From an uncultured bacterium (GTDB lineage Bacteria > Cyanobacteriota > Vampirovibrionia > Gastranaerophilales > Gastranaerophilaceae), in NCBI GenBank assembly GCA_902780525.1, contig CACZFL010000006.1, forward strand, positions 96,650 to 160,649: DNA of 64,000 nt, given 5' to 3'. Position 1 is the first letter of the stretch. Every line of letters starts with the position of its first letter. The position numbers and the translations under genes are program-made. Positions 7,778 through 63,673 of this stretch are shown in pieces. The notes under the pieces are model-generated. The model had not been told where the DNA came from, made no database searches, and saw only the letters and a program-made list of their open reading frames with translations.

Positions 7778-7789
7778 GGGGAAATAGAA

Positions 7790-9568
7790 ATGACAGACGA
7801 AAAGAAAACATTATTTATAGAAGGAAAAGAAGTCGAATTTTCTAATGAACCTAACCTTTTAGAAGTAATTAGAAAAGCAGGCATGAATGTTCCTACATTA
7901 TGTTACAGACCTGACTTAACATCATTTGGTGCTTGCAGAATGTGTGTTGTAGAAGTTGAGTATCCTAACGGAAGAAAAATGATTAACTCTTCTTGTACAA
8001 TGCCTCCTGAAGCAAACATCAAAGTTCATTTGAACACACAAAAAGTCAGAAATATCAGAAAAATGGTACTTGAACTTCTTCTTGCAAATCATGACAGAGA
8101 ATGTACAACTTGTGAAAAATCAGGTGCATGCGAACTTCAAAAATACGCTGAAGAGTACGGTATCAGACATGTAAAACAATACGCTCAGCGTGAAGTTATG
8201 GTTAAAAAAGATGCAAGCTCATGTGCATTAATCCGTGATAATAACAAATGTATCCTTTGCGGAGCTTGTGTAAGAGCTTGTGACGAACACCAAGGCTTAC
8301 AGGTTTTAGGTTTCGCTAACCGCGGAAGCAAAACGGTTGTTGAACCTATGGCAGGCAGAGACCTCGGAAGCAGTGAATGTATTAATTGCGGTCAGTGTGC
8401 GGCAGTATGTCCGACAGGCGCAATTACAATAAACGACGAGCAGCTCGATGGTGTTTGGAGAGCAATCAACAATCCTGAAAAGAAAGTTGTTGCTCAGTTT
8501 GCACCTTCTGTTCGTGTTGCAATAGGTGAAATGTTCGGTTTAGAACCAGGTGAAAACTCAACTAAGAAAATTAATGCGGCATTACGAAGAATCGGTTTTG
8601 ACCTTGTATTTGATACAAACTTCTCCGCAGACTTAACAATTATGGAAGAAGCTCACGAGTTCTTAGGCAGACTTCAAAACGGGGGTAAATTACCGTTATT
8701 TACTTCATGTTGTCCTGGTTGGGTAAGATTCTTGGAAATCCAGCACCCTGATATGCTTGGCCACTTATCAACTTGTAAATCACCTCAAGGTATGTTGGGT
8801 GCAATAATCAGAGAATACGTTCCGCAGTCTCACGAAGGATTTACTTCGGAAAACTTGGTAAGCGTTTCAATTATGCCTTGTACGGCTAAGAAGTACGAAG
8901 CAAAACGTGAACAGTTCAAAATGGCAGACGGCAGACAAGAAATTGACTACGTTCTTACAACTCAGGAACTTGGCAGAATGATTAAAGAAGCAGGTATTGA
9001 CTTTGCTGCTCTCGAAGGTGAAGAACCTGATTCTCCGTTTGGTAAATACACAGGTGCCGGTACAATCTTCGGTGTATCAGGCGGTGTTGCTGAAGCTGCT
9101 GCAAGAACTGCCTACGAAGTTGTAACAGGTGAAACTCTTCAAAATGTCGTTATTGACGATATGAGAGGAACAAAACGTGTTAAAACAGTCGAACTTGATC
9201 TTAAAGGAACTAAGATTAAAGTTAAAATCGTTAACACACTTCGTGAAGCAGAAAAATGCATCAGAGAAATCAAAGAAGGCAAAGCGGATTATCAGCTTCT
9301 TGAAGTTATGGCTTGTCCGGGCGGTTGTATCAACGGCGGCGGTCAGCCACAAAGCTGCAACGATTCTAATATCAAGGAACTTCGTGCTCAAGGCTTGTAC
9401 AAAGATGATGAAACAGGTGAATGGAGAAAATCACACGAAAACCCTGAAATCAAAGAATTGTACGCAACTCGCTTAGAAAAACCAAACTCTCATAAGGCAC
9501 ACGAACTCTTGCATACTACTTATGTGAACAAGAGAACAAACTGCTACATCTCAGTTGGTGAGGGGTAA
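7790..9568 (+). CDS. hydA: [FeFe] hydrogenase catalytic subunit
   Basis: 592 aa. N-terminal 2Fe-2S and 4Fe-4S domains. H-cluster signatures TSCCPGW, MPCTAKKYE and EVMACPGGCINGGGQP. Confidence 0.95.
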   Translation: MTDEKKTLFIEGKEVEFSNEPNLLEVIRKAGMNVPTLCYRPDLTSFGACRMCVVEVEYPNGRKMINSSCTMPPEANIKVHLNTQKVRNIRKMVLELLLANHDRECTTCEKSGACELQKYAEEYGIRHVKQYAQREVMVKKDASSCALIRDNNKCILCGACVRACDEHQGLQVLGFANRGSKTVVEPMAGRDLGSSECINCGQCAAVCPTGAITINDEQLDGVWRAINNPEKKVVAQFAPSVRVAIGEMFGLEPGENSTKKINAALRRIGFDLVFDTNFSADLTIMEEAHEFLGRLQNGGKLPLFTSCCPGWVRFLEIQHPDMLGHLSTCKSPQGMLGAIIREYVPQSHEGFTSENLVSVSIMPCTAKKYEAKREQFKMADGRQEIDYVLTTQELGRMIKEAGIDFAALEGEEPDSPFGKYTGAGTIFGVSGGVAEAAARTAYEVVTGETLQNVVIDDMRGTKRVKTVELDLKGTKIKVKIVNTLREAEKCIREIKEGKADYQLLEVMACPGGCINGGGQPQSCNDSNIKELRAQGLYKDDETGEWRKSHENPEIKELYATRLEKPNSHKAHELLHTTYVNKRTNCYISVGEG

Positions 9569-9630
9569 AGGGGTAAATATATCCCCAATTCCATTTTATA
9601 AGAATATAAGAGGTTTGGCGTGAAGATATT

Positions 9631-14121: not shown

Positions 14122-14206
14122 AATAACAATTCCTTTTATAATCTAATCGATAATTTAAGTATAACAAAAACAGGGGTAAATATAAAAAGAAAAAATCCGA
14201 ATTGTG

Positions 14207-15568: not shown

Positions 15569-15603
15569 TGTATGGTTAGTGTTAAAATTGTAGGGGTAAT
15601 ATT

Positions 15604-32862: not shown

Positions 32863-33615
32863 ATGATTAACAGAAAATCTCGTGAAGAAATTAAACGTAT
32901 GCGCCATGCAGGGCATATAGTTGCACTTGTTCATAAAAAAATGAGAGAAGTTGTTGAACCCGGTATCTCAACTCTGGAACTTGATAATATTGCAATGCAG
33001 GTGATAAAAGAAAATAAAGCGATTCCGACATTTCTCGGATATAATGGTTTTCCTGCAAGCATCTGTACATCTATAAACGAAAAAGTCGTACACGGAATCC
33101 CAAGTGAAAAAGAAATACTTAAAGAAGGCGACATAATTGCAATAGATGTTGGTGCAACATATGGCGGTATGGTTGGTGACAGTGCCTGGTCTTATGCCGT
33201 TGGTAAAATCTCTGAAGAAAAACAAAAACTTATGAAAGCAACAGAAGAAGCACTTTTCGCAGGTATATCAAAAATGCGTCCGGGAAATGTTCTTGATGAC
33301 ATATCCGGTGCAGTAGAAGATGTTGCTATATCTTACGGCATGGGAATAGTCCGTAATTACGGCGGACACGGTGTCGGACACCAGATGCACGAAGACCCGT
33401 TCTTGTTTAATTACAGAGTAGGTGATAAAACCCCGATAAAACAGGGGTACGTAATTGCAATTGAACCAATGCTAAACCTCGGCTGCGATGATGTTTTTAC
33501 AGAAGAAGATAACTGGGGTGTGGTAACAAAAGACAGAATGCCCTCTGCTCACTTTGAGCACACAGTCCTTGCAACAGACGACGAACCAATTTTAATGACT
33601 ACTTTAATGGAATAA
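32863..33615 (+). CDS. map: type I methionine aminopeptidase
   Basis: 250 aa. Metal ligands in the conserved contexts D..A.D, GHG.G, EP and the EHT region. Confidence 0.96.
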   Translation: MINRKSREEIKRMRHAGHIVALVHKKMREVVEPGISTLELDNIAMQVIKENKAIPTFLGYNGFPASICTSINEKVVHGIPSEKEILKEGDIIAIDVGATYGGMVGDSAWSYAVGKISEEKQKLMKATEEALFAGISKMRPGNVLDDISGAVEDVAISYGMGIVRNYGGHGVGHQMHEDPFLFNYRVGDKTPIKQGYVIAIEPMLNLGCDDVFTEEDNWGVVTKDRMPSAHFEHTVLATDDEPILMTTLME

Positions 33616-33634
33616 GGTAAAGGTGTAAATATAA

Positions 33635-40570: not shown

Positions 40571-42310
40571 TTACAGGGAATGAACAGCTGAGACAACAAT
40601 TTCTGCGGCATCTTCCGGTGTAATGTTGCTGAGCTCTTCACTATCCCTTTGTTTAAACTCAACCAAACCATCTGCAATACCTTTTCCGACGGTTATTCTA
40701 AACGGAAAACCTATTAAATCGGCATCTTTAAATTTAACACCGGCTCTTTCGTCTCTGTCGTCAAGAACTGCTTCAACGCCGTGTTTGTTGAGTGTTTTAT
40801 AAATATCTTCAGCAACTCTCATTTGTTGTTCGTCCTTTATATTAACAGGAATAACAACTGCATGGTAAGGAGCAATAGCTAGCGGCCAGATAATACCATG
40901 GTCATCGTGGTGTGCTTCAACAGCTGCCGCTGCAGTTCTTGTAACGCCGATACCATAACAACCCATTACGTATGGCTGAGTTTTTCCGTTCTGGTCAAGG
41001 AACACTGCATTCATTGGTTTAGAATACTTAGTTCCAAGCTGGAAAATGTTACCAACTTCAATACCTCTTGTAACTTTCAGAGGTTTTCCGCAAACAGGAC
41101 AAATATCTCCGGCTTCAACCAGTCGAATATCAGTAATTATTTCAGGTAAATCAACTTCAACTCCCCAATTGTAACCTACTCCGTGAACATCCTTTTTGTT
41201 TATGCCAATAACGAAGTTTTTCATATTTTTTACGGTTTCATCAGCAACAACTTTGATTTTGTATCCGTTGTATTCCTTCAAACCCTGAGGACCAATAAAC
41301 CCTTTCTCGCTATCGAATCCATTTACCCCCATCATTTCTTCGATTTCGCCTGCGGTTGCGATTCTGATATCAGTACCACCTACTGCATTCATAAGTTTTG
41401 TTTCTTCAACTGCTCTGTCAGCTCTTATCAAAGCTAAAACAGGGGCTTTATCAACGATATAAACTAATGTTTTTACAATAACCGTTGCAGGAATATTCAA
41501 AAACTCTGTAAGTTCTTCTATGGAATGAGTATTCGGAGTATCAACAATTTTTGCTTCTTTCCAGTCGCCTTCGATTTTAGCCTCAGGAAGCTTTGATACT
41601 GCGTGATTTGAGTTTGCCGCATAATCACATTCACAGTAGAATACATCATTTTCGCCTGAGTCCTGATCTGTAATTACCATAAATTCGTGGCTTACGCTTC
41701 CACCTATTGCACCTGAATCTGACTGAACTGCTTTTGTTTCAAGTCCGCAGCGTTTAAAGATTTTTGTATATGCACTCCACATATTCTTATATTCTTTTTC
41801 GAGTCCTTCCTGATCAACATCAAAAGAATAAGCGTCTTTCATAATGAACTCACGGCCTCTTAACAAACCAAAACGAGGGCGTCTTTCATCACGGAATTTA
41901 GACTGGATTTGGTATAAATTAACAGGTAATTGTTTGTATGATTTTAGTCCGTCACGTGCAATAGCTGTAATAATTTCTTCGTGCGTTGGTCCAAGGCACA
42001 TTTCTCTTCCGTGTCTGTCTTTCAGTCTCATGAGTTCACCACCGTATGCACCCCATCTTCCTGATTCTTCCCAAAGTTCTTTTGGCTGAACAAAAGGCAT
42101 AAGAAGTTCCTGTGCACCTGCTTTATCCATTTCTTCACGGATAATATTTTCAACTTTTCTGATTACTCTCCACATAAGAGGCAAATAGTTATATACACCC
42201 ATTGCAAGTTTTCTTATATATCCTGCTCTTACAAGAAGTTTATGCGAAATAACTTCTGCATCAGAAGGGTACTCTCTTAAAGTCTGTACAAACAATTTTG
42301 ACATTTTCAT
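40571..42310 (-). CDS. proS: proline--tRNA ligase (bacterial type with editing domain)
   Basis: 579 aa. Class II motifs, an INS editing insertion and a C-terminal anticodon-binding domain. Full-length resemblance to ProS. Confidence 0.96.
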   Translation of the reverse strand: MKMSKLFVQTLREYPSDAEVISHKLLVRAGYIRKLAMGVYNYLPLMWRVIRKVENIIREEMDKAGAQELLMPFVQPKELWEESGRWGAYGGELMRLKDRHGREMCLGPTHEEIITAIARDGLKSYKQLPVNLYQIQSKFRDERRPRFGLLRGREFIMKDAYSFDVDQEGLEKEYKNMWSAYTKIFKRCGLETKAVQSDSGAIGGSVSHEFMVITDQDSGENDVFYCECDYAANSNHAVSKLPEAKIEGDWKEAKIVDTPNTHSIEELTEFLNIPATVIVKTLVYIVDKAPVLALIRADRAVEETKLMNAVGGTDIRIATAGEIEEMMGVNGFDSEKGFIGPQGLKEYNGYKIKVVADETVKNMKNFVIGINKKDVHGVGYNWGVEVDLPEIITDIRLVEAGDICPVCGKPLKVTRGIEVGNIFQLGTKYSKPMNAVFLDQNGKTQPYVMGCYGIGVTRTAAAAVEAHHDDHGIIWPLAIAPYHAVVIPVNIKDEQQMRVAEDIYKTLNKHGVEAVLDDRDERAGVKFKDADLIGFPFRITVGKGIADGLVEFKQRDSEELSNITPEDAAEIVVSAVHSL

Positions 42311-42418: not shown

Positions 42419-43468
42419 ATGAAAACATTATTTGATTGTAAAGATGAGATACACTCATGTTCCAAATGCGGATTATGTCAGTCGGTTTGCCCGATTTATA
42501 AAATTACCGGTAATGACTGTACCGTTTCCCGTGGTCATTTTATAATGCTTCGGGGGTTGATAAAAGGCGAACTCAAAATGTCAAAAACAATAAACCGTTA
42601 TCTGGATTTGTGTCTTAAATGCGGAGCATGTTCGGATTTTTGTCCGAGTGGCATAGATGTTGTTGATATTGTTGCACTTGCAAAGGCTGAATATTTCAAA
42701 CTTCATCCGGCAGAAAAATTTAAGTCCTCTGTTATGAATATGATGATAAAAAGTCTTAAATTTTTGAAAATTTTTCATTTATTTACCCCAAAAAGCAAGT
42801 CTTTTGAAAAAAAAGTTATATACTTTGGCGGCTGCGGTGCAAAAGTTGAAGGGGTTTCAAATATAATAAAAATCTTTAATTCGGTAAATATTGAAGTTAT
42901 TGTTCCTGATTTTGACTGTTGCGGTTTTCCGTTCTTTGTAAAAGGTGATATGGAAAGCTTTAATAAATATATGGAAAGTTTTTATTCTGTTCTCGAACAG
43001 TACGGGGATTACGACATTGTTGTAAACTGCGCGACCTGTGAAAAAACTCTTGAATCTTATCCAAAATGGCACGAGGGTAAAGAGGTCAGAATCAGAAATG
43101 TTTTTGAATATTTAAGAGAGAATAATCTTTCATTAGAACTTACAAAGCCGAAAAAAGTAACTTATCATAAACCCTGTAATCTGAAAAATTTTGATAACGT
43201 TAAATATTTTCTGGAAAATACAAAAAATCTTGAGTATGTTGAAATGAAGGATTTTGATACCTGTTGCGGACTTGAGGGAGTTGGGAATCTGAAAGAACGA
43301 AAAACAATGTCAAAGCTTTTCAGTGCAAAGCATAAAAATATCAAAGATACAGGTGCAAAAATTGTTTTGACATCTTGTCTTGCATGTAAAATTACTCTCG
43401 GTCTGTTTTCCTGGGGCAAATATAAAGTTCAGGATTTTATTGAGTTTCTTGCCAAGAATGTTAAGTAA
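42419..43468 (+). CDS. (Fe-S)-binding protein with two CCG domains (GlcF/HdrD/LutA-like)
   Basis: 349 aa. CSKCGLCQSVCP and CLKCGACSDFCP ferredoxin motifs, followed by two Cys-rich CCG-type domains (FDCCGFP, FDTCCG). Confidence 0.75.
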   Translation: MKTLFDCKDEIHSCSKCGLCQSVCPIYKITGNDCTVSRGHFIMLRGLIKGELKMSKTINRYLDLCLKCGACSDFCPSGIDVVDIVALAKAEYFKLHPAEKFKSSVMNMMIKSLKFLKIFHLFTPKSKSFEKKVIYFGGCGAKVEGVSNIIKIFNSVNIEVIVPDFDCCGFPFFVKGDMESFNKYMESFYSVLEQYGDYDIVVNCATCEKTLESYPKWHEGKEVRIRNVFEYLRENNLSLELTKPKKVTYHKPCNLKNFDNVKYFLENTKNLEYVEMKDFDTCCGLEGVGNLKERKTMSKLFSAKHKNIKDTGAKIVLTSCLACKITLGLFSWGKYKVQDFIEFLAKNVK

Positions 43469-44384
43469 ACTTAATCCCCTGCCGGGAATTCCTTCGCAAA
43501 AATTCTCTGTCTATTCGGTTTAGCGTATCCAGTTTTCTTCCAATCCAGCGGGGCGCAACGAGTTCTGTTCTGAGTCCATTTCCTGCAAGGCGGTGAATAG
43601 TTGTTTTGGGAGGTAAATATTCCAAGAAATCGCAAACGGTTGAAACATATTCATCTTCACTCATAAAATCAATTTCACCGTTTTTATAGAGTTCAGCCAG
43701 TTTTGTGCCCTCTAATGCGCAGAGCATATGAATCTTTACCCCGTCAGGCTCAAGTTTAGCTATCGTTTTTGCTGTTTCCATCATCTCGTCATAAGATTCA
43801 AAAAGGTTAAGAATAACGTGCAGGCAGACGTTTATTCCTTTTTCTTTTGTTTTTGTATAAGCATCTAAAAAGCATTTGTAATCGTGTCCGCGGTTAATTT
43901 TTTTAAGCGTTTTATCGTGAACTGACTGCAAGCCGTACTCAACCCATGTGTAATAATCGGGGGTAAATGAGCTTATGAGATTTAATTTATCCCCGTTAAT
44001 ACAGTCAGGTCGTGTGCCGATAGAAATACCCACGATATCATCTCTGCAAAGAGAAGCTGTGTATATTTTTTCAAGCTCTTCAACAGGCTTATAAGTATTA
44101 GAAAAAGCCTGAAAATAAGACATAAATTTTTGTGCCTTGAATCGGTTTTTTAAGGTTTCAGCACCTGTATTAACCTGCTCTTCTATGCTCAGGCGGTTTG
44201 AATGAGCCTGAGAAAAACTTCCGCCGTCGTCACAAAAAATACAACCGTCTTTTGAGATCGTTCCGTCACGATTAGGACAGGAAAAACCTGCATCAAGAGT
44301 GATTTTATAAACCTTTGCACCGAACTTAAGTTTAAGATGTTCGCTAAATTGATTGTATCTTTTATCAGTTCCGTTAAATTCCAT
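43461..44384 (-). CDS. TIGR01212-family radical SAM protein
   Basis: 307 aa. GFSCPNRDGTISKDGCIFCD cluster motif and the family-typical length and layout. Confidence 0.8.
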   Translation of the reverse strand: MEFNGTDKRYNQFSEHLKLKFGAKVYKITLDAGFSCPNRDGTISKDGCIFCDDGGSFSQAHSNRLSIEEQVNTGAETLKNRFKAQKFMSYFQAFSNTYKPVEELEKIYTASLCRDDIVGISIGTRPDCINGDKLNLISSFTPDYYTWVEYGLQSVHDKTLKKINRGHDYKCFLDAYTKTKEKGINVCLHVILNLFESYDEMMETAKTIAKLEPDGVKIHMLCALEGTKLAELYKNGEIDFMSEDEYVSTVCDFLEYLPPKTTIHRLAGNGLRTELVAPRWIGRKLDTLNRIDREFLRRNSRQGIKFT

Positions 44385-44388
44385 GATT

Positions 44389-45672
44389 TTATTTATTTAA
44401 CTGTTTCTTTACCCAGCCTTCAAGAACTCTGAGTGGTGCTCTTGTTATCGCTAAAGCCCATGCCGGCAAATCTTTTGTAATAACACTCAAAGCTCCTACG
44501 TTTGCGCCTTCTTCGACCTTAACGGGAGCAACAAGAACAGAATTTGAGCCGATTTTTACATTATCTTCAATTATTGTCTTGCTTTTTTCTTTTGTTAAAG
44601 GGTTGTAATTTGCCGTAATTGTGCCTGCTCCGATATTTACGTTAGAGCCTATTTCAGCATCACCAATGTAAGTAAGGTGGCAGGCGTTTGTGTGAGATTT
44701 GATGTGAGCTTTTTTAACTTCAACAAAATTACCTATTTTTACATTGTCATCTAAAATTACTCCGCCTCTCAGGTGCGCAAACGGACCTATTTTACAATTC
44801 TTTCCTATTTTATTAGCTCCTTCAATATAAGTTGAGGGGTAAATAACAGTATCCGGTTCAATCTCTGTTTCAGGGCTAATCCATGTTGATTCAGGGTCAA
44901 TTATTGTAACTCCGTTTGTAAGATGTTTATTAATAACTCTTCTGTTCAAAAACTTTGTTGCTTCTGCAAGGTTAGCTTTTGAGTTAATACCGTAAATCTC
45001 TTCGTTGTTCTTTAAAGTGTAAGCGTTTACGCTGAGTCCCTGCTCATTTCCCCATTTGATAATGTCAGTTAAGTAATATTCGCCTTGTGCATTGTTTGTT
45101 TTTAGTTGAGAGAAAGCAGGTTTAACTTTTTTCCAGTCGAGGCAATAGATTCCTGCATTTATTTCATTTACTCCCTTTTGTTCCGGAGTTGCGTCTTTTT
45201 CTTCAACAATACCTTCTACATGGCCGTTTGAATTTCTTATAATTCTCCCATAGTTTGTCGGGTTATCAAAAATTGCACTCATTACGGTTAAATCAGATTT
45301 ATTGTTTTTATGGTATTCAACAAATTCTTTCAAAGTTTCGGCAGTTATAAGAGGAGTGTCACCGCAAAGAATAACAACTTCACCGTCAAAGTCCTGAAGG
45401 TATGGTAGAACCATGCTTACTGCGTGTCCTGTTCCCAGCTGAGGTGACTGGAGGACTGTTCTTGCGTTTGAATAATTTTCTTTTATATATTCTTCAACTC
45501 TTTCAGCCTGATGACCCACAATAACAAAGTTTTCATCAGCCAAACCCGTTCCGTTAACAGCTTCTATAACATACCCTACCAAAGTTTTATCAAAAATTGT
45601 ATGCAGAACCTTTGGAGTTTCCGATTTCATTCTTGTACCTTTGCCTGCGGCCAAAATAACTGATTTTAACAT
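44389..45672 (-). CDS. glmU: bifunctional UDP-N-acetylglucosamine pyrophosphorylase / glucosamine-1-phosphate N-acetyltransferase
   Basis: 427 aa. LAAGKGTRMKS nucleotidyltransferase motif and a C-terminal left-handed beta-helix with hexapeptide repeats. Confidence 0.88.
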   Translation of the reverse strand: MLKSVILAAGKGTRMKSETPKVLHTIFDKTLVGYVIEAVNGTGLADENFVIVGHQAERVEEYIKENYSNARTVLQSPQLGTGHAVSMVLPYLQDFDGEVVILCGDTPLITAETLKEFVEYHKNNKSDLTVMSAIFDNPTNYGRIIRNSNGHVEGIVEEKDATPEQKGVNEINAGIYCLDWKKVKPAFSQLKTNNAQGEYYLTDIIKWGNEQGLSVNAYTLKNNEEIYGINSKANLAEATKFLNRRVINKHLTNGVTIIDPESTWISPETEIEPDTVIYPSTYIEGANKIGKNCKIGPFAHLRGGVILDDNVKIGNFVEVKKAHIKSHTNACHLTYIGDAEIGSNVNIGAGTITANYNPLTKEKSKTIIEDNVKIGSNSVLVAPVKVEEGANVGALSVITKDLPAWALAITRAPLRVLEGWVKKQLNK

Positions 45673-45754
45673 AACGATTTCCCTCTTAATCTATTTACCC
45701 AATAATTATATCATAGTATAATTAACTTGTTATTTAAAGAAAAAAGAGGGCAAA

Positions 45755-47229: not shown

Positions 47230-48246
47230 ATGAAAACAGCACAGGTCAACGGGGATAAAATTGTTATAAATGAGGTTGACGATATCAGATTAGAGGGTCG
47301 TAAAGGCTCAATAGTAAAAGTGTTGGGTTGTGGGCTCTGCGGTTCTGATATTGTTAAATTCAGAGAAAAAATTGTTGGCGACGGTGCCGTATTGGGACAT
47401 GAAATAGTTGCCGTCATTGATGAAATTGACTCTGATACTCCTTTTAAAAAAGGTGATAAAATCGTAACTTCACACCATATTCCATGCGGTGAATGTGTTT
47501 ACTGTAAACACGGAAATGTATCAATGTGCGAACATTTTAAATCAACAAATATTCGCCCCGGAGGTTTTAGTGAGAAGGTTTTTGTATCAGAGGAGCATCT
47601 TAAAAACGTTGCGCATCTTGTTCCTAAAGAAATGACAGATGAAGAAATATCATTCTATGAACCGTTGGGATGCTGTGTCAGGGCAATTAAGAGATGTAAT
47701 TTAATCGAAGGTGACAAAGTTCTTGTAATCGGTTTGGGTTCAATCGGACTTCTTATGGGTGAAGGAATAAAGGCTATGGGTTACAAGGTATTTGGCTGCG
47801 ATCTTATTGAAGAAAGAATTGCTCTCGGAAACAAACTTGGAATAGAATCTTATAACTCTTTAAATCTTGATGAGTTTGATAAAATTATTCAGGAAAAAAG
47901 CGGGGGTAAATCTGGGGGTATTGATGCCGTATTTATGACCTCAGGTGCAGATAAAGCATTAGATGTTGCATTAAAAGTTGTAAGAAAAGGCGGAAAAATT
48001 CTTGTATTTTCAAGCACGCCAAGGAATACCGGATATCCCAATAACGAAGTTTATTACAAAGAATTGACAGTTTTGGGCAGTTACTCGCCTTCACCTAAGG
48101 ATTTAAAGGATTCTTTTGATTTATTGACTTCACATAAAGTAAATGTAAAACATCTTACAACAGTTTATCCTCTGGAAAGTATTCAACAAGCTTTTGAAGA
48201 CACTGTTGCAAACAAAATTCTGAAAGCATATATTAAAATATCATAA
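47230..48246 (+). CDS. zinc-dependent medium-chain dehydrogenase/reductase
   Basis: 338 aa. GCGLCGSD, GHE, structural-zinc Cys cluster CGECVYCKHGNVSMC, and the Rossmann motif GLGSIG. Confidence 0.85.
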   Translation: MKTAQVNGDKIVINEVDDIRLEGRKGSIVKVLGCGLCGSDIVKFREKIVGDGAVLGHEIVAVIDEIDSDTPFKKGDKIVTSHHIPCGECVYCKHGNVSMCEHFKSTNIRPGGFSEKVFVSEEHLKNVAHLVPKEMTDEEISFYEPLGCCVRAIKRCNLIEGDKVLVIGLGSIGLLMGEGIKAMGYKVFGCDLIEERIALGNKLGIESYNSLNLDEFDKIIQEKSGGKSGGIDAVFMTSGADKALDVALKVVRKGGKILVFSSTPRNTGYPNNEVYYKELTVLGSYSPSPKDLKDSFDLLTSHKVNVKHLTTVYPLESIQQAFEDTVANKILKAYIKIS

Positions 48247-48364: not shown

Positions 48365-48400
48365 TTTAAAAATAATAAAGAGATTCATAAATTTAAAACT

Positions 48401-48423
48401 AAGCCAAAAAGCTTGGTTTTTTT
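48401..48423 (+). terminator. weak intrinsic terminator after tRNA-Gly
   Basis: A short AAGC/GCTT (or CCAA/TTGG) stem followed by T7. Confidence 0.35.
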
Positions 48424-48487
48424 ATTAGGGGGTAAATGGATAAAGGGGTAAAGTGGTAAATATTGGAGTCTAAACTCCGGAGAAGGT

Positions 48488-52070: not shown

Positions 52071-52086
52071 AGCTAAATATATAATT

Positions 52087-52692: not shown

Positions 52693-52765
52693 AAATTTAT
52701 ATTACATCCTTTTCCTATTTACCCCTTTATATTATAATACATATGTAAAATATAGGAGATAAAAT

Positions 52766-54021: not shown

Positions 54022-55077
54022 ATGACAAGAATAGCTATAGATGCAATGGGAGGAGATCACGCACCTTTTGAAATAGTAGCAGGTGCTGTTTGGGCTGCTG
54101 CAGAATACGGTGTGGCTCTTGAGTTAGTCGGCAAACAAGACCAGATAGAAGAATGTCTTGACAGAATTCAGGAACAAGGATTCTTATCGCCATGCGGAAA
54201 AGCAGGCAGAAGCAGAAGAATAAGAGTTGATGTAAAATCTTTGGACATAAAGATTACTCACGCATCTGAAATTATAGAAATGGGTGAGGCTCCGGGTCAG
54301 GCGATTCGTAAAAAGAAAAATTCTTCCATTGTGCTTACTGTTAACTCAGTTGCAACAGGAAGCTCCGAAGCCCTTGTTGCCGCAGGTTCAACAGGTGCAG
54401 CTATGGCTGCCAGTTTGTTTGGCTTGGGAAGAATTCCGGGAATCGACAGACCTGCTATTGCGGTAACCCTTCCTACTATGAAAAAGCCCGTTGTTGTAAT
54501 CGATGGCGGTGCAAACTCAAATTGTACACCCCAAATGTTAAGACAATTTGCAATTATGGGAAGAATTTTTGCAAAGAACGTATTGGATATTGATAATCCG
54601 AAAACAGGTGTTGTAAATATCGGTGAGGAAGCTGGCAAAGGTAATGAGCTTGCTCAGAACGTTTACACAATGCTTGAAGAAGAAAAAGAAAAATTTAATT
54701 TCATTGGTAATATTGAAGGCAGAGAACTATTCTTAAACCACTGTGACGTTGTTGTTTGCGACGGCTTTGTAGGTAACGTTGTACTTAAGGTTACAGAAGG
54801 CACAGCTTCAATGTTATTCAAGATGATTAAGAGCGAATTTAAAGCAGACTTCTTGGGTATGATTATTGGTTGGTTAGCAAAACCGTTCTTAAGAAGAATT
54901 TATGAAAAAATTAATTATGAAGAATTTGGCGGCATGCTTCTTTTGGGTGTTAAAGGTATTACAGTTATATCCCACGGCAGAAGTAAAGCATACGCAATCA
55001 AAAATGCAGTTCGTGTAGCTAAGGAAGCTGTTGAAACCCAGGTTAACCAAAAAATTGCCGAAAGTATTGAGGGGTAA
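54022..55077 (+). CDS. plsX: phosphate acyltransferase PlsX
   Basis: 351 aa. IAIDAMGGDHAP N-terminus and full-length resemblance to PlsX. Confidence 0.96.
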   Translation: MTRIAIDAMGGDHAPFEIVAGAVWAAAEYGVALELVGKQDQIEECLDRIQEQGFLSPCGKAGRSRRIRVDVKSLDIKITHASEIIEMGEAPGQAIRKKKNSSIVLTVNSVATGSSEALVAAGSTGAAMAASLFGLGRIPGIDRPAIAVTLPTMKKPVVVIDGGANSNCTPQMLRQFAIMGRIFAKNVLDIDNPKTGVVNIGEEAGKGNELAQNVYTMLEEEKEKFNFIGNIEGRELFLNHCDVVVCDGFVGNVVLKVTEGTASMLFKMIKSEFKADFLGMIIGWLAKPFLRRIYEKINYEEFGGMLLLGVKGITVISHGRSKAYAIKNAVRVAKEAVETQVNQKIAESIEG

Positions 55078-55106
55078 ATATTAACATAACCTAAGAATAA
55101 TTTATA

Positions 55107-57404: not shown

Positions 57405-57432
57405 GGGTAAAATATAAAGGGGTAATATCAGA

Positions 57433-57927
57433 TTGAAAATAAAATTATCCTTAATATCATTGGTATTGATACTTTGTGTGACTTCGGTTTTTGCTGTTAC
57501 ACGAAATAGTTATACGCATTACGGCAAACATATTATGCCGACGTACTTTGACCCGTACTTTATTGATGATTTGGAACACTGTGCTCCAAACTGGTATGTT
57601 GACTGGACAGGAACATACAAATATATAATTGAAGGAAAAGATGATAAAGGAATATGCAAGTACAAAACCCAGTATAATCAATGGTTGTCGAGAAAAGTAA
57701 ACGAATGGCAGGATTATAAAACTTGCGAGTTTGATGAGGCAAAACTCAAAGAACTTTCAAATGCTTTAAGAGAACATTCCGGACAGATTAAATCATACAG
57801 AATGGGGTACATGTACCAAACAACCGGAACAAAAGTTGAATATCTTGTGTATTCTTATGAATACTACGGGGCATGCAAATTTGTCTGGACAGGAAAAAGA
57901 AGAACAAAAATAGACAATTACCCCTAG
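57433..57927 (+). CDS. secreted hypothetical protein inside the fab cluster
   Basis: 164 aa with a TTG start and AAGGGG SD-like sequence 9 nt upstream. Signal peptide MKIKLSLISLVLILCVTSVFA. Aromatic- and Cys-containing mature part. Confidence 0.6.
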   Translation: MKIKLSLISLVLILCVTSVFAVTRNSYTHYGKHIMPTYFDPYFIDDLEHCAPNWYVDWTGTYKYIIEGKDDKGICKYKTQYNQWLSRKVNEWQDYKTCEFDEAKLKELSNALREHSGQIKSYRMGYMYQTTGTKVEYLVYSYEYYGACKFVWTGKRRTKIDNYP

Positions 57928-58044
57928 GGGTGAATATATAAATATTATTTGCCCATCCATAGTTTTATGGTAAAATTAGGGTGTTGGGATAGAGAAATGT
58001 AGATAGGGGATTCCCCTCAATAATAAGAATAAGGAGAAAGATTA

Positions 58045-60606: not shown

Positions 60607-62589
60607 ATGGAAAAAAAGTTTGAGATATGTTCCAAATATAAACCTGCAGGCGACCAGCCAAAGGCAATAGAGCAGCTTGTTGAAGGGGTAAACAGGGGTG
60701 ATGATACGCAAACTCTTTTAGGTATTACAGGCTCAGGGAAAACGTTTACCATTGCCAATGTTATTGAGCGTGTACAAAAACCTACGCTTATTATAGCGCA
60801 CAACAAAACTCTTGCAGCACAGCTTTATAATGAGTTTAAAGAACTTTTTCCGAATAATGCGGTTGAATATTTTATCTCATACTATGACTATTATCAGCCT
60901 GAAGCGTATATTCCAAGAACGGATACTTACATAGAAAAATCGGCAAGCATTAATGACGAAATAGACCGTTTAAGGCATAATACTACCAGAAGTCTTTATG
61001 AAAGAAATGACGTAATTATTGTTGCATCCGTCAGTTGTATTTACGGTTTGGGACTTCCTGAAAGTTATTTTAAAGGCACTATTAAAATCTCAGTCGGCGA
61101 TCAGTTAGAGCGAAACGACTTAATTAAACACCTTGTTATGACTCGTTATACAAGAAATGATCTGGAGCTTGAGCGCTCAACATTCAGAGCCAGAGGTGAC
61201 ATTTTAGAGATAATGCCTGCTTATGAAAAGATTGTTACACGTATTTACTTCTTCGGTGATGAAATTGAAAAAATAGTAAGAATAGATCATCTTACAGGCG
61301 AAATTCTTGAAGCTCCTGAATCTGTTTACATTTATCCCGCAGTTCACTACATAGCGTATGATGAAAACGAAGAAGAAACGCTTGATATGATTAGAACAGA
61401 GCTTCGTAACAGGGTGAATGAACTCGAAGCTGAGAATAAAATACTTGAATCCCAAAGACTCCAGCAGAGAGTTAAGTATGATATGGAAATGATAAAAGAG
61501 ATGGGTTACTGTTCAGGGATTGAAAACTATTCAAGAATAATTGAACGCAGACCCGTCGGTTCAGCTCCTGCAACGCTATTGGATTATTTCAGGGGTGAAT
61601 TCCTTACCGTAATTGATGAATCCCACGTAACACTTCCGCAATTAAACGGAATGTATCATGGTGATGCTTCAAGAAAACAGGTTTTAGTTGATTTCGGGTT
61701 TAGACTTCCTTGTGCAAAGGATAACAGACCGCTTAAATGGGATGAGTTTTTCTCAAAAGTAGGTCAAAAAATTTATATCTCGGCTACTCCAGGAGATTTT
61801 GAAAAAGAAACTTCTTCACAGCTTGTTGAACAAATTATCCGTCCGACCGGACTAGTTGACCCGAAAATATCTGTTCGTCCGATTGAAACTCAAATATCAG
61901 ACCTGAAACAAGAAATCGCAAAACGTGCAAAGAAAGATGAACGTGTACTTATTACAACGCTTACAAAACGTATGGCGGAAGATTTGTGTGATTTCTTCCT
62001 TCAAGAGGGTATTCGTGTGAGATATCTGCACAGTGGAATAAAATCAATTGAACGTGTTGAAATTTTGCGTGATTTGAGATTAGGTGAGTTTGACGTTCTA
62101 ATTGGTGTAAACCTTTTAAGAGAAGGTTTAGACATACCTGAAGTTTCGCTAGTTGCAATTATGGACGCTGATAAAGAAGGATTTTTGCGTTCCGATACAA
62201 GCTTAATCCAGACTATCGGGCGTGCCGCACGTAATGCTTGCGGTGAAGTTATTATGTACGCAGATAAGATAACTGATTCTATGCAAAGAGCCATAGATGA
62301 AACAAACCGCCGTCGAGAAATACAGCTTGAACACAATAAAAAATACGGCATCATTCCGCAAACGATTAAGAAACCAATCGAAAATAATCTGCTCTCACTT
62401 GTTGCAAGCTATCGTGATTTTGAAGATATAGTTGCCGAAGAAATGGTTGATCTTGGTATTGATAAAAAAGATTTGCCTAAACTTATTTCAAAACTGGAAA
62501 AAGATATGCATAAAGCAGCCAAGATTCTTGATTTTGAACGAGCTGCAGAAATCCGCGACCAGCTCAAAAAACTACGAGAAATGGTCTAG
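60607..62589 (+). CDS. uvrB: excinuclease ABC subunit B
   Basis: 660 aa. F.L.S.Y.P.GDQP.AI N-terminus, GITGSGKT Walker A, helicase motifs, and the C-terminal UVR domain ([11 protein letters not shown]). Confidence 0.97.
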
Positions 62590-62610
62590 GGGGGGTAAAT
62601 GTTATTAATC

Positions 62611-62686: not shown

Positions 62687-62698
62687 GTGAATATACCC

Positions 62699-63673
62699 CT
62701 ACATTTTGATTAATATCTTAATCGTATCTTTTGCCTTGTTTGCTTCAAACGCTTCAAGAGCTTCATCTATTGAATAAATTTTTGAGATAAACGGTTTAAA
62801 ATCGATTCTGTTGTTTTCAAGGAGTCTTAGAGCCGGCGGGAATTGACCGCAGCGAGAACCGAGGACTGTAATCTCATTAATAACAATAGGAGCTAGATTT
62901 AGTTCTTTTCCTGTTGCAACAGTGCTCTTCAAAACAAGAACTCCTCTCGGTTTAGTTAGTGCCATAGAGGTTTCGAAACCTCCTGCCGTACCTGTTGCTT
63001 CAACTACAACGTCATAGACATTTTCGATTTTTAAATCCTGTAAAAGTTTTGTTTTTACCCCTTGAGCTTCAGCAATATCCAATTTATTTTGGTGTTTGCC
63101 CACTAAAGTAACATCAAGGTTTTGTGCGTGAAGTGTAAGAGCTGTAGTTAAACCTAGTTTTCCGTCACCTAAAACAAGAACTTTTTTCATCGGTTCAATA
63201 TGCAGTTGTTCTGATATTTCGCAAGCTGCAGCAAGCGGTTCAACAAAAACAGCCTGTTCGTCAGGAACATTAGAAGGAACTTCAAAAAGAACATTAACCG
63301 GCATTGTCATATATTCTGCAAAGCAGCCATCCTTATTAACAATACCGAGAGTATGTCTTGCCGGACAATGACGGTAATTTTTTTGAGCGCACCATTCACA
63401 AGAGGGGTCGTCACAACCGTAACTTATCTCAGCAACAACACGCTTTCCAATCCATTTTTTATCATCAGGTTTATCTGAGTTTACATCTTCAACTACTCCG
63501 ACAAATTCGTGTCCGAGGATTCCAACATAACCCATATATCCTTTAGTAATCTCATAATCAGTATTACAAATACCGGCAAGGGTTACTTTTATAAGTGCTT
63601 CACCTTTTTGTGGCTCAGGCTTTTTATAGTTTTTATCAAGTTTAAGTTCATTATCAAAAACAATTGCTTTCAT
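62699..63673 (-). CDS. zinc-dependent medium-chain dehydrogenase/reductase
   Basis: 324 aa. GICNTDYE, GHEFVG, structural-zinc Cys cluster (CDDPSCEWCAQKNYRHC), and the Rossmann motif GDGKLG. Confidence 0.85.
   Translation of the reverse strand: MKAIVFDNELKLDKNYKKPEPQKGEALIKVTLAGICNTDYEITKGYMGYVGILGHEFVGVVEDVNSDKPDDKKWIGKRVVAEISYGCDDPSCEWCAQKNYRHCPARHTLGIVNKDGCFAEYMTMPVNVLFEVPSNVPDEQAVFVEPLAAACEISEQLHIEPMKKVLVLGDGKLGLTTALTLHAQNLDVTLVGKHQNKLDIAEAQGVKTKLLQDLKIENVYDVVVEATGTAGGFETSMALTKPRGVLVLKSTVATGKELNLAPIVINEITVLGSRCGQFPPALRLLENNRIDFKPFISKIYSIDEALEAFEANKAKDTIKILIKM

What the first reader, a model, noticed from the sequence alone, without database searches (positions are those of the whole stretch)
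48428..48464. Over-represented GGGGTAAAT(AT) motif at gene boundaries, often in tandem and often containing the stop codon
By eye I found exact GGGGTAAAT at 9570, 14173, 48430, 55071, 62592, on the reverse strand at 52717-52725, and once inside a CDS (47905). My rough estimate of the chance expectation for this 9-mer on both strands of an AT-rich 64-kb window is below one. Close variants occur at 15593 (GGGGTAATATT, directly upstream of the adhE ATG), 57404-57429 (GGGTAAAATATAAAGGGGTAATAT), 33615-33633 (AGGTAAAGGTGTAAATAT), 57927-57940 (GGGGTGAATATAT), reverse strand 62691-62701 (GGGGTATAT) and reverse strand 45693-45701 (TGGGTAAAT). Several copies are tandem, for example 9562-9586 (GGGGTAAAGGGGTAAATAT) and 48428-48464 (GGGGGTAAATGGATAAAGGGGTAAAGTGGTAAATAT). 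In hydA and plsX the motif's own TAA is the stop codon; both genes end GAG GGG TAA. In uvrB, the 57433 ORF and the 62699 dehydrogenase, the motif directly follows a TAG stop. In two cases (adhE and 57433) it sits where an SD is expected. Possible roles are an unusual SD or standby site, a termination-context or ribosome-pausing signal, an RNA-binding-protein site, an uptake-signal-like genomic word, or a G-tract structure.
Basis: seen in the sequence. Interest (0 to 1): 0.65.

Follow-up and report, generated by a model that had tools for sequence, protein, structure and literature searches.

The report
Clade-specific iterated DNA word GGGGTAAAT
A 9-base word, GGGGTAAAT, is about 25 times too common in this gut or rumen relative of cyanobacteria and its close kin, on both DNA strands inside genes and even more at gene ends, so it looks like a genome-wide "signature word" of the DNA-uptake-sequence or HIP1 kind rather than a ribosome-binding or stop signal.

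Summary
GGGGTAAAT occurs 12 times in the window against about 0.5 expected. It is the most over-represented 9-mer in the window, and its 8- and 7-base cores top their size classes.

The window comes from an uncultured Gastranaerophilales (Melainabacteria) bacterium. The excess is clade-specific: 20-26x in the window and its closest relatives, about 10x in a further group, and none in relatives whose marker protein is 64-67% identical.

Several results point to a DNA-level cause.
- The excess holds inside real genes on both the sense and antisense strands, tested against a synonymous-codon shuffle.
- One-mismatch forms are 2.4x enriched and two-mismatch forms are not.
- Copies differ from motif-free orthologous sites by clustered substitutions.
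- Other copies are short tandem duplications. Their periods are 12 or 15 inside genes and 7, 8, 10 or 13 between genes.

Only about 1% of gene starts carry the word in Shine-Dalgarno position. No -35-like partner, RNA structure or replication polarity was found.

The gene-boundary and stop-codon pattern is statistically real (17 of 38 against 5.4 expected). It is best explained by seeding on existing TAA-AT stops and SD-like AGGT-AAA stretches, where constraint is weak.

The most likely driver is a sequence-specific uptake or recombination bias, as for USS, DUS or HIP1. This is inferred, not shown.

The parts
48428..48463 (+). Four-unit degenerate tandem array: GGGGGTAAAT GGATAAA GGGGTAAA GTGGTAAAT AT. 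It lies between the tRNA-Gly terminator and the UPF0102/YraN gene (ATG at 48488). This is the flagged locus.
   Evidence: Sequence read; tRNA. The array sits in a stretch of about 55 nt that the orthologous site in L002 lacks; there the terminator T-run is followed by 9 nt and then the ATG. It is identical in six same-species contigs from different samples. No RNA structure (z 0.11).
9562..9582 (+). Two-unit array GGGGTAAA GGGGTAAAT ATAT at the end of hydA. The TAA of the first unit (9566-9568) is the hydA stop codon. The downstream gene (infB) is convergent.
   Evidence: Pfam Fe-hydrogenase and IF-2.
55071..55081 (+). GGGGTAAATAT at the plsX end. Its TAA (55075-55077) is the stop codon.
   Evidence: Orthologues read GAATCATAAA (L005) and GAAGCATAAA (L006), with the same stop position. 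The copy therefore differs from them by four clustered substitutions and not by an insertion.
62589..62600 (+). GGGGGGGTAAAT directly after, and sharing a G with, the uvrB TAG stop. It heads two tandem units of about 48 nt that fill the convergent spacer.
   Evidence: The second unit resembles the element that follows the (GGGGTAA)n array in L040.
62691..62701 (-). GGGGTATAT on the - strand, sharing a G with the TAG stop of the Zn-dehydrogenase 62699-63673. With 62589-62600 it forms an inverted pair flanking the convergent spacer.
57405..57428 (+). GGGTAAAATATAAAGGGGTAATAT between the fabD stop (57402-57404) and the TTG start at 57433. The second unit is in SD position.
57916..57935 (.). Back-to-back copies AATTACCCC|TAG|GGGTGAAT around the TAG stop of ORF 57433-57927, forming the palindrome ACCCCTAGGGGT.
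15593..15603 (+). GGGGTAATATT in SD position before the adhE ATG at 15604.
   Evidence: Pfam.
14173..14183 (+). GGGGTAAATAT in a divergent spacer, 51 nt from the release-factor gene start and 125 nt before the next start. It is at neither an SD position nor a stop.
52717..52725 (-). GGGGTAAAT 24 nt upstream of the Sua5/YrdC ATG. Weaker forms occur at the same site in L005 (GGGTAAAT) and L006 (GGGTAAAGAGGTAAA).
47903..47911 (+). In-frame copy inside the Zn-ADH gene. It is part of a 12-nt unit (GGG GGT AAA TCT, Gly-Gly-Lys-Ser) in a 4-residue stretch that 16 listed orthologues lack.
   Evidence: L001 has one unit, L009 has four tandem units (GGKN GGKY GGKY GGKY), and 16 listed relatives read ...SGG-IDAVFM with a 4-residue gap here.
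8682..8690 (+). Sense copy inside hydA (N-G-G-K-L).
41321..41329 (-). Sense copy inside proS (M-G-V-N-G). L001 reads GCG instead of GGG at this position.
42781..42789 (-). Antisense copy inside the CCG/4Fe-4S protein gene 42419-43468.
   Evidence: Pfam.
43960..43968 (+). Antisense copy inside the radical-SAM gene 43461-44384.
   Evidence: Pfam.
44836..44844 (+). Antisense copy inside glmU-like gene 44389-45672. In L001 a second, inverted copy lies 14 nt away.
   Evidence: Pfam.
33615..33632 (+). Degenerate two-unit array AGGTAAA GGTGTAAAT AT directly after the methionine-aminopeptidase TAA stop.
   Evidence: Pfam.
7775..7785 (+). TAG GGGGAAAT: the stop of the NuoF-like gene, followed by a one-mismatch copy that serves as the SD of hydA (ATG at 7790).
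   Evidence: Pfam.

Best explanation
GGGGTAAAT, with the extended consensus A-GGGGTAAAT-R-T-A-T, is a self-contained, clade-specific iterated DNA word of one Gastranaerophilales lineage. It accumulates at the DNA level under a sequence-specific drive. The most likely driver is a bias in DNA uptake or recombination, of the kind known for USS and DUS and now proposed for cyanobacterial HIP1.

Sites that already resemble the word appear to be pushed to a perfect match by substitutions. Once present, copies are amplified locally by short tandem duplication.

- Gene ends carry ready-made partial matches on the sense strand. These are the dominant TAA stop followed by A/T (TAAAT, TAAAA) and the SD-plus-spacer of the next gene (AGGT/AGGA + AAA).
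- Gene ends tolerate change. The four Gs replace the last, weakly constrained codon, or the first bases after the stop.

A copy therefore often supplies or abuts the stop codon, and occasionally doubles as an SD.

Shown: the excess, its clade limits, its presence on both strands inside genes, the mismatch gradient, the substitution and duplication differences from orthologues, and the stop adjacency.

Inferred: the direction of those changes, the seeding account, and that a drive exists. The nature of the drive (uptake or recombination bias) rests on analogy only.
For: - **Size of the excess.** 12 observed against 0.49 expected. It is the top 9-, 8- and 7-mer of the window. With 20 kb more of the same genome the count is 16 against 0.6.
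- **Clade limits.** Intergenic excess is 25x and coding excess 13-20x in the window and in loci with at least 80% marker identity. It is weaker in the 72-79% group and at chance in the 64-67% group. It is the top or second 9-mer in groups A and B1 only. Motif-rich loci cluster in one clade of the marker tree, patchily.
- **DNA level.** Against a synonymous-codon shuffle that keeps proteins and codon usage, sense copies are 15 against 1.47 and antisense copies 5 against 0.68 in the window plus group A. There is no excess in group C. The genes involved are real: hydA, proS, CCG/Fer4, radical SAM, glmU and ADH. Further antisense copies lie in portal-like genes next to the window.
- **Graded excess.** Exact copies 26x, one mismatch 2.4x, two mismatches 1.04x. 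This is the qualitative pattern reported for uptake sequences (PMC1939737, abstract).
- **Differences from orthologues are substitutions.** At the plsX end, GAATCA/GAAGCA-TAAA in relatives corresponds to GAGGGG-TAAAT here. Several sites differ between the window and L001, for example CCGGCAAATC against GGGGGTAAATC. At the end of gene 50622-52070 the window reads TAGAGCTAAATAT, L006 reads TAGGGGTAAATAT and L005 reads TAGAGGGGTAAATAT.
- **Tandem amplification.** Periods inside genes are multiples of three: 12 in ADH (1-4 units), L021 and L008, and 15 in L113. Periods between genes are 7, 8, 10 and 13. The orthologous spacer upstream of the ADH gene holds 0-3 copies across 57 loci.
- **Self-contained word.** No conserved flank was found from -50 to +40.
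- **Stop adjacency.** 17 of 38 first sense copies lie at -7..+6 from a stop, against 5.4 expected (p<5e-5). Offsets -7 and -1 dominate. TAA makes up 69% of stops, and TAAAA and TAAAT are the commonest stop contexts.
- **Location by spacer type.** Copies are three times denser in spacers that contain a gene 3' end than in divergent spacers.
Against: - Intergenic copies are sense-biased: 28 against 8 in co-directional spacers. A pure DNA-level drive does not predict this. I attribute it to sense-specific seeds (stops and SDs) but did not prove it.
- Density is about 1 per 5 kb, well below the roughly 1 per kb that I recall for classical USS and DUS.
- Inverted pairs that form terminators, typical of DUS and USS, are rare here. 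Direct tandem arrays, which are common here, are not a USS or DUS feature.
- No competence machinery, receptor, methyltransferase or recombinase was linked to the word.
- Counts in relatives include orthologous copies, so the effective sample is smaller than the raw numbers suggest.
- Gene models are longest-ORF calls, not a trained gene finder.
- Everything rests on about 1.4 Mb of MAG fragments centred on one locus.
Confidence: 0.45

Rival explanations
1. The word is a functional mRNA element at gene boundaries. It could act as an SD-like (GGGGU pairing with the anti-SD through a G-U wobble) standby or re-initiation site, or as a termination-context signal. On this view it is selected on the sense strand, and tandem copies act as extra ribosome landing pads or multi-frame stops.
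For: - Intergenic copies are sense-biased, 28:8.
- There is strong adjacency to stop codons, at offsets -7 and -1.
- A few copies are in true SD position: adhE, the ORF at 57433, and L029, L045, L052 and L060.
- The basic short operon junction in relatives is stop + AGGT/AGGA + AAAA + ATG, which resembles the word.
- Unrelated phages use GGGGTAAAGGGGTAAA-N-ATG as an SD.
Against: - GGGGTAA is in SD position at only 2 of 247, 3 of 673 and 1 of 357 predicted starts. AGGA, GGAG and GAGG are the norm in all three groups.
- Most intergenic copies are 17-600 nt from a start, or face a convergent gene such as hydA/infB or uvrB/ADH.
- The excess is also present antisense inside genes.
- The word is absent from more distant relatives, whose translation apparatus is presumably much the same (my inference, not tested).
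- Orthologous genes stop at the same codon without it.
Confidence: 0.15
2. The word is a very small mobile or templated repeat, like the cyanobacterial small dispersed repeats, or a transposon target-duplication footprint. Some enzyme inserts or copies units of 8-15 nt into spacers, and in frame into genes.
For: - There is insertion polymorphism. The 48428 array lies in about 55 nt absent from L002.
- A 12-nt in-frame unit is absent from 16 listed ADH orthologues and present in 1-4 copies in the window, L001 and L009.
- Further in-frame arrays occur in L021, L008 and L113.
- In several relatives the word heads longer tandem units of 48-55 nt: L033, L020, L025 and window 62592-62698.
- Back-to-back and inverted copies are flanked by TA: 57916-57935 and 62589/62701.
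Against: - Many copies are not insertions but differ by clustered substitutions at a fixed position.
- One-mismatch forms are also enriched.
- There is no conserved flank, terminal inverted repeat or hairpin.
- Array periods vary (7, 8, 10, 12, 13, 15), so there is no fixed inserted unit.
- No transposase or reverse transcriptase is nearby in the window.
- The array is invariant among six same-species contigs.
Confidence: 0.15
3. The word is the binding site of an abundant, clade-specific DNA-binding protein, such as a nucleoid-associated protein, a global regulator or a partition or condensin loader. Selection maintains many sites, clustered in spacers.
For: - It is a non-palindromic 9-12-nt word, enriched on both strands and 7x denser in spacers than in genes.
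- Direct-repeat clusters occur.
- The site upstream of Sua5 is partly conserved in three genomes.
- Presence is patchy among sister lineages, as expected if a gene for the binder is gained and lost.
Against: - Array periods are not phased with the helix: 7, 8, 10 and 13.
- Copies are depleted in divergent, promoter-only spacers relative to spacers with 3' ends.
- There is no fixed distance to starts or promoters and no partner half-site.
- Orthologous spacers gain and lose copies freely.
Confidence: 0.15
4. The word is a polar recombination or segregation signal, either Chi for RecBCD/AddAB or a KOPS/SRS-type FtsK guide, over-represented on the leading strand.
For: - It has a G-rich 5' part.
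- Its density of about 1 per 5 kb is similar to what I recall for E. coli Chi.
- In the window, 13 of 18 GGGGTAAA copies lie on the strand with positive GC skew.
Against: - Orientation follows the flanking genes, not the skew. Copies inside genes split 7 on + and 6 on -.
- In the 4 kb block at 66-70 kb, all four copies are on the - strand although GC skew stays positive.
- Chi and KOPS are not concentrated in spacers or in tandem arrays, and 9-12 nt is long for either (my own knowledge).
Confidence: 0.05

Closest known systems
DNA uptake sequences (USS of Pasteurellaceae, DUS of Neisseriaceae)
   Same: It is a 9-12-nt non-palindromic word, strongly over-represented in a narrow clade. It occurs inside genes on both strands and is denser in spacers near gene 3' ends. 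One-mismatch forms show a graded excess, the qualitative pattern reported in PMC1939737. Copies differ from motif-free orthologues by point substitutions.
   Different: It is about five times sparser. It forms direct tandem arrays rather than inverted pairs that act as terminators. Intergenic copies are sense-biased. It occurs in a different phylum. No uptake bias, receptor or competence genes have been shown.
HIP1 (GCGATCGC) of Cyanobacteria
   Same: It is a hyper-abundant short word in the sister lineage. It is found in genes and spacers and, from my own knowledge of the literature, is reported to spread by substitution. Its function was long unknown, and it is now proposed as a transformation or uptake-enhancing sequence (bioRxiv 10.1101/2024.09.10.611283 and 10.64898/2026.06.24.733823).
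   Different: HIP1 is a palindromic octamer tied to cognate methyltransferases and is far denser. GGGGTAAAT is not palindromic, forms tandem arrays, and has no known methylase.
STRR short tandemly repeated repetitive heptamers of heterocystous cyanobacteria (my own knowledge)
   Same: These are G/C-run-plus-three-base units repeated head to tail in spacers. L040 carries (GGGGTAA)x6, and the window has arrays of 2-4 units.
   Different: Most copies here are single. Periods vary from 7 to 15. Copies also lie inside genes. The sequence and the host lineage are different.
Small dispersed repeats of Nostoc (very small mobile repeats, 21-27 nt) and Rickettsia palindromic elements (my own knowledge)
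   Same: Some copies appear as insertions relative to orthologues, including in-frame insertions in protein-coding genes.
   Different: This word is much shorter (9-12 nt). It has no inverted repeat or predicted hairpin. Many copies differ from orthologues by substitution rather than insertion.
Shine-Dalgarno sequence
   Same: GGGGU can pair with the anti-SD CCUCC through one G-U wobble (general knowledge). A few copies sit 4-7 nt before a start codon.
   Different: About 1% of starts use it. Most copies are not near a start. It is enriched antisense inside genes.

Membership tests
Shine-Dalgarno / standby site | Lies 4-12 nt upstream of a start codon on the sense strand | tested here: not met
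   GGGGTAA is in the -18..-4 zone of 2 of 247 starts (window + group A), 3 of 673 (group B) and 1 of 357 (group C). Most of the 84 non-coding copies are 17-600 nt from a start or face a convergent gene.
Shine-Dalgarno / standby site | Complementary to the 3' end of the organism's own 16S rRNA | not testable with these tools
   No 16S 3' end is present in the window or in any of the 120 loci held. Pairing of GGGGU with CCUCC through a G-U wobble is general knowledge only.
DNA uptake sequence (USS/DUS) | Clade-specific strong over-representation of a 9-12-mer in genes and spacers, on both strands | tested here: met
DNA uptake sequence (USS/DUS) | Graded excess of near-matches, with copies arising by point substitution | tested here: met
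   Exact 26x, one mismatch 2.4x, two mismatches 1.04x. Orthologue comparisons.
DNA uptake sequence (USS/DUS) | Frequent inverted pairs forming terminators; density near 1 per kb | tested here: not met
   Direct arrays dominate. The only inverted pairs are 57916/57927, 62592/62691 and L001 7582/7606. Density is about 1 per 5 kb.
DNA uptake sequence (USS/DUS) | DNA carrying the word is preferentially taken up; a cognate receptor or competence machinery is present | not testable with these tools
   The organism is uncultured. No competence genes lie in the window. The literature search found nothing for this order.
HIP1-type iterated palindrome | Palindromic octamer with a cognate methyltransferase | tested here: not met
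   GGGGTAAAT is not a palindrome. No methyltransferase was examined.
Chi / KOPS polar motif | Orientation biased toward the leading strand, independent of gene strand | tested here: not met
   Copies inside genes split 7:6 between strands. In the block at 66-70 kb, four copies are on the - strand with positive GC skew. The sample is small.
REP / MITE / small dispersed repeat | Conserved unit with an inverted repeat or hairpin, present as an insertion relative to empty sites | tested here: inconclusive
   Insertions exist. However, there is no conserved flank and no structure, and many copies differ from orthologues by substitution.
Alternative-sigma promoter (-10 of the GGGTA(A/T) type) | Conserved -35-like partner at fixed spacing; location upstream of genes | tested here: not met
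   Information content is at most 0.19 bit at every position from -50 to -2. Copies are depleted in divergent spacers.
Structured RNA / riboswitch | Rfam match or stable conserved fold | tested here: not met
   Rfam finds only two tRNAs. Fold z-scores are 0.11, 0.32, -0.96 and 0.61.
STRR-type short tandem repeat | Head-to-tail arrays of a 7-nt unit in spacers | tested here: inconclusive
   L040 has six 7-nt units. Other arrays have 2-4 units with periods of 8-15. Most copies are single.

The most novel reading that the evidence does not exclude
GGGGTAAAT is the specificity sequence of a DNA uptake or homologous-recombination system in a gut and rumen clade of Gastranaerophilales. It would be a non-palindromic counterpart of HIP1 in the non-photosynthetic sister lineage of Cyanobacteria, and to my knowledge the first USS- or DUS-like sequence outside Proteobacteria. 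Its patchy presence among sister genomes would then mark gain and loss of the receptor, and would allow the receptor to be found by comparative genomics.
Probability: 0.2. Interest if true: 0.8.

Novelty: new variant of a known kind. Interest (0 to 1): 0.55.

Why it matters
Short words that a genome over-uses by an order of magnitude are rare. Where they are understood (USS, DUS, Chi, KOPS), they report on how a lineage exchanges, repairs or segregates its DNA.

Nothing of this kind turned up for Melainabacteria in the literature searches made here. These bacteria are uncultured, and their genetics is known only from metagenomes.

A clade-specific word has several practical uses.
- It is a marker for binning and for detecting foreign DNA.
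- It is a handle for finding the protein that reads it, by comparing motif-rich and motif-poor sister genomes such as L023 and L017.
- It is a comparison point for the open question of what HIP1 does in cyanobacteria.

There is also a warning for annotation. In this clade, G-rich SD-like words next to stop codons are mostly not ribosome-binding sites. The word can also create short in-frame Gly-Gly-Lys-x or Gly-Val-Asn-x repeats in otherwise conserved enzymes.

Tried and rejected
- **Standard SD.** Rejected by counting.
- **Bipartite promoter for an alternative sigma factor.** A GGGTAA -10 recalls sigma-B or SigF types (from memory). Rejected because there is no upstream partner and copies are depleted in divergent spacers.
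- **Structured RNA.** Rejected: Rfam finds only tRNAs and folds are no better than shuffles.
- **End of one longer mobile element.** Rejected because there is no conserved flank. Some copies do head longer units of 48-55 nt in relatives.
- **Phage or plasmid iteron.** A scan of viral contigs for GGGGTAAAGGGGTAAA gave 26 hits. By my rough estimate that is about the chance number. The hits have unrelated G+C content and are often ordinary SDs.
- **Chi/KOPS polarity.** Not supported.
- **DnaA box.** TGGATAAA inside the 48428 array resembles part of TGTGGATAA, but the word itself matches the consensus poorly. This was judged by eye only.
- **Derivation from tRNA-Gly.** The tRNA begins GCGGGGGTAATTCAG, so GGGGTAATT is a one-mismatch hit at 48293. 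That variant is not enriched (2 copies).
- **Strain-level copy-number variation of the flagged array.** None was found in six same-species contigs.
- **Metatranscriptome and metagenome contigs laid on the hydA 3' end.** The result was too mixed across strains to place transcript ends.
- **Literature.** No paper treats this word. The hits are primers and unrelated sequences. Nothing was found on competence in Gastranaerophilales.
- **GC-skew test of orientation in MAG fragments.** It is confounded with gene strand.
Full report
**1. The observation**

GGGGTAAAT occurs 12 times on the two strands of the window. Dinucleotide-preserving shuffles give 0.49, with a maximum of 2. Two of its coordinates were off by one or two bases. 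It missed five copies, all inside coding sequence: 8682, 41321-, 42781-, 43960 and 44836.

Allowing one mismatch gives 44 hits against 13.3 expected. Under an order-3 Markov model, GGGGTAAAT, GGGGTAAA and GGGGTAA are the most over-represented 9-, 8- and 7-mers of the whole window.

The variants, the tandem arrays (9562-9580 and 48428-48463) and the stop-codon and SD statements all check out against the sequence.

**2. Where the window comes from**

The Zn-dehydrogenase at 47230-48246 finds 80 loci in species-representative genomes. Essentially all are uncultured Gastranaerophilales, Melainabacteria or Vampirovibrio MAGs from rumen and gut. The best match is 93% identical at the protein level.

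Pfam confirms ordinary housekeeping genes around the copies: hydA, infB, a release factor, adhE, proS, glmU, plsX, fabH, fabD and uvrB. Rfam finds only two tRNAs.

**3. The excess is clade-specific and is not limited to spacers**

I split the window and the loci into coding and non-coding sequence using a longest-ORF gene model (about 89% coding). Observed against expected counts under the order-3 Markov model are as follows.

| Set | Marker identity | Spacers (obs/exp) | Coding (obs/exp) |
|---|---|---|---|
| Window | - | 5 / 0.2 | 6 / 0.31 |
| Group A | at least 80% | 13 / 0.56 | 14 / 1.06 |
| Group B | 72-79% | 23 / 1.64 | 13 / 3.5 |
| Group C | 64-67% | 1 / 0.65 | 3 / 2.5 |

The word is first or second among 9-mers in groups A and B1, and is not among the top words of groups B2 or C. 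On a neighbour-joining tree of the marker protein, motif-rich loci fall in the clade that holds the window. They are patchy within it: L023 has 5 copies and its sister L017 has none. The outgroup clade lacks them. This is a single-gene tree and the per-locus counts are small, so the patchiness is only suggestive.

**4. It is a DNA-level phenomenon**

I used a null that shuffles synonymous codons and so keeps every protein and the overall codon usage. Results for the window plus group A, and for group C, are shown here.

| Set | Sense (obs/exp) | Antisense (obs/exp) |
|---|---|---|
| Window + group A | 15 / 1.47 | 5 / 0.68 |
| Group C | 3 / 1.44 | 0 / 1.04 |

The sense copies encode G-V-N or (G/R)-G-K. 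The antisense copies encode I-Y-P, F-T-P or L-P-P.

Twenty further kilobases of the same genome were recovered through exact-protein look-ups. They add four exact copies, all antisense inside two portal-like paralogues.

One-mismatch forms are 2.4x enriched and two-mismatch forms 1.04x. In group C these ratios are 0.8 and 1.0. This steep but graded profile is the pattern described for uptake sequences (PMC1939737).

**5. How copies arise**

Two routes are visible in comparisons with orthologues.

*Route (a): clustered substitutions at a fixed position.*
- At the plsX end, relatives read GAA TCA TAA A (L005) and GAA GCA TAA A (L006). The window reads GAG GGG TAA AT, with the stop codon in the same place.
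- Between the window and L001 (85% identical) several sites differ this way, in both directions. Examples are CCGGCAAATC against GGGGGTAAATC, TTAGCTCC against TTTACCCC, and TTTACTCC against TTTACCCC.
- After the stop of gene 50622-52070 the window reads TAG AGC TAAATAT, L006 reads TAG GGG TAAATAT and L005 reads TAGA GGGG TAAATAT.

*Route (b): short tandem duplication or insertion.*
- Inside the ADH gene, 16 listed orthologues read ...SGG-IDAVFM, with a 4-residue gap where the window has an extra 12-nt unit (GGG GGT AAA TCT). L001 has one unit. L009 has four units in tandem.
- L021 (GVND x2), L008 (GVNE x2) and the portal gene in L113 (a period-15 pair on the antisense strand) are further in-frame arrays.
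- Between genes the periods are 7 (L040, six units), 8 (window 9562, L022, L047, L011), 10 (L011, three units) and 13 (L002).

So the period is a multiple of three exactly where the reading frame requires it. This is what selection acting on an otherwise unconstrained duplication process would give.

The flagged array at 48428 lies in a stretch of about 55 nt that L002 lacks at the orthologous tRNA-Gly/yraN junction. It is identical in six same-species contigs from different samples, so it is not hypervariable. The spacer upstream of the ADH gene, compared across 57 loci, holds anywhere from 0 to 3 copies in no simple phylogenetic order.

**6. What the word is not**

*It is not the SD.* AGGA, GGAG and GAGG dominate upstream of starts in all three groups. 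GGGGTAA sits in the SD zone at 2 of 247, 3 of 673 and 1 of 357 starts. Most non-coding copies are far from a start or face a convergent gene. adhE and the ORF at 57433 are genuine but exceptional cases. The 16S 3' end could not be read from any held sequence.

*It is not a bipartite promoter or the end of one longer element.* In 55 non-redundant spacer copies, no position from -50 to -2 or beyond +12 carries information. The word is self-contained: A-GGGGTAAAT-R-T-A-T. In some relatives it does head longer tandem units of 48-55 nt. The uvrB/ADH spacer in the window holds two such units, one of which resembles the element after the L040 array.

*It is not a structured RNA*.

*It is not a polar Chi/KOPS-type signal.* Copies inside genes split 7 to 6 between strands. 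In the block at 66-70 kb, all four copies are on the strand opposite to the positive GC skew. In MAG fragments GC skew is confounded with gene strand, so that test was uninformative.

*It is not a phage or plasmid iteron*.

**7. Why gene boundaries and stop codons**

The positional bias is real. Of 38 spacers with a sense-strand copy downstream of a gene, the first copy lies within -7..+6 of the stop in 17, against 5.4 expected under uniform placement (p<5e-5). Offset -7 means the word's TAA is the stop codon; there are six such cases. Offset -1 means TAG|GGGTAA; there are five. Copies are about three times denser in spacers that contain a gene 3' end than in divergent spacers.

I propose three reasons.
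- TAA makes up 69% of stops, and TAAAA and TAAAT are the commonest stop contexts. Five of the nine bases are therefore often already in place, and only on the sense strand.
- In tight operon junctions the next gene's SD-plus-spacer (AGGT/AGGA + AAA) lies right after the stop and resembles the word.
- The last codon and the first bases of the 3' UTR are weakly constrained.

Together these account for the stop adjacency and, I infer, for most of the 28:8 sense bias of spacer copies. This inference was not tested formally.

**8. Mechanism**

What is shown is a clade-specific, sequence-specific excess. Copies differ from motif-free orthologues by substitution or duplication, in any DNA that resides in these genomes, including prophage-like genes.

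The class of process that I know to produce this pattern is molecular drive from a sequence-specific bias in DNA uptake or recombination, as for USS and DUS. The same idea is now being put forward for cyanobacterial HIP1. I therefore rank that first, but only as an analogy. The density is lower, direct arrays replace inverted pairs, and no machinery has been tied to the word.

The rivals are a very small mobile or templated repeat, a site for an abundant DNA-binding protein, and an mRNA-level function. These are not excluded and are scored separately.

**9. Comparison with known systems, and novelty**

The word behaves like USS, DUS or HIP1 in its distribution and mode of origin. It resembles cyanobacterial STRR repeats in its tandem G-run-plus-AT units, and small dispersed repeats in its occasional in-frame insertions. 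It fails at least one defining feature of each family (see the membership table).

The literature searches found nothing on this word or on iterated words in Melainabacteria. I class it as a new variant of a known kind, the over-represented genomic signature word. It is of moderate interest now, and would be of high interest if the uptake or recombination reading were confirmed.

**10. Caveats**

- The gene models are crude.
- Relatives share ancestry with the window at the sampled locus, so counts are not independent.
- All comparative data come from about 1.4 Mb around one marker gene.
- The direction of change in pairwise comparisons is inferred from outgroups in only a few cases (plsX and ADH).

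Noticed in passing
window 11164, 18670, 20583, 31478, 40895: The palindrome ACCATGGT, which contains CCATGG, occurs at 5 sites against about 0.4 expected. It is the second most over-represented 8-mer of the window. Four of the sites are inside genes. It is nearly absent from the related loci.
   Followed up: partly
window, all stop codons; loci L001-L057: TGA is a rare stop codon: 3 of 54 ORFs in the window and 28 of 643 in the window plus relatives. TAA accounts for 69% and TAG for 26%. This is unusually low for a genome of about 36% G+C.
   Followed up: no
L113 1-9650 (sequence immediately right of window position 63673): There is a phage-like block with two SU10-portal-like paralogues and a peptidase M48 gene. 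It carries six GGGGTAA(A) copies, all antisense to the genes.
   Followed up: partly
loci L016-L036: A different palindromic octamer, GCAATTGC, is strongly over-represented in this group of relatives (78 against 15.7 expected). It may be a HIP-like word of that sub-clade.
   Followed up: no
window 48365-48487; L005 4333-5810; L006 11005-12859: The junction downstream of tRNA-Gly(GCC) is an insertion hot spot. L005 and L006 carry about 1.4-1.8 kb between the tRNA and yraN. L002 has 9 nt after the terminator T-run, and the window has about 65 nt.
   Followed up: partly
window 18272-18299 and 29596-29625; also 9637-9662, 52086-52116: Bidirectional intrinsic terminators lie between convergent genes. 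They reuse the same stem, GCGGGCGG...CCGCCCGC, flanked by A- and T-runs.
   Followed up: no
L011 2470-2520, L052 ~19680, L035 ~9960, L027 ~400, L025 ~5860: Other dispersed repeats occur in relatives' spacers. One is CCCCTCGCCCCTTGTGGGAGAGGGGTAGGGGTGAGGGG-type. Another is GTCATTGCGAGGAGCGAAAGCGACGAAGCAATCC-type. They are sometimes directly joined to a GGGGTAAAT copy.
   Followed up: no
L040 9885-9927 (- strand): A telomere-like heptamer array, GGGGTAAA(GGGGTAA)x5GGGGTAAATG, lies upstream of the ADH gene. It is followed by an element that resembles window 62646-62667.
   Followed up: partly
window 58003-58017: A small palindrome, TAGGGGATTCCCCTCA, lies in the spacer before the ketoreductase gene, close to the back-to-back copies at 57916-57935.
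   Followed up: no
window 48290-48301: The 5' end of tRNA-Gly (GCGGGGGTAATTCAG) is a one-mismatch hit to the word. It has to be excluded from the counts.
   Followed up: yes
L020 9890-10000, L023 9890-10000, L043 9890-10000: In three relatives a copy sits about 6 nt after a near-consensus promoter (TTGACA-17-TATAAA). It is followed by a terminator-like hairpin before the ADH gene. This may be a leader or attenuator whose transcript would begin with the word.
   Followed up: no
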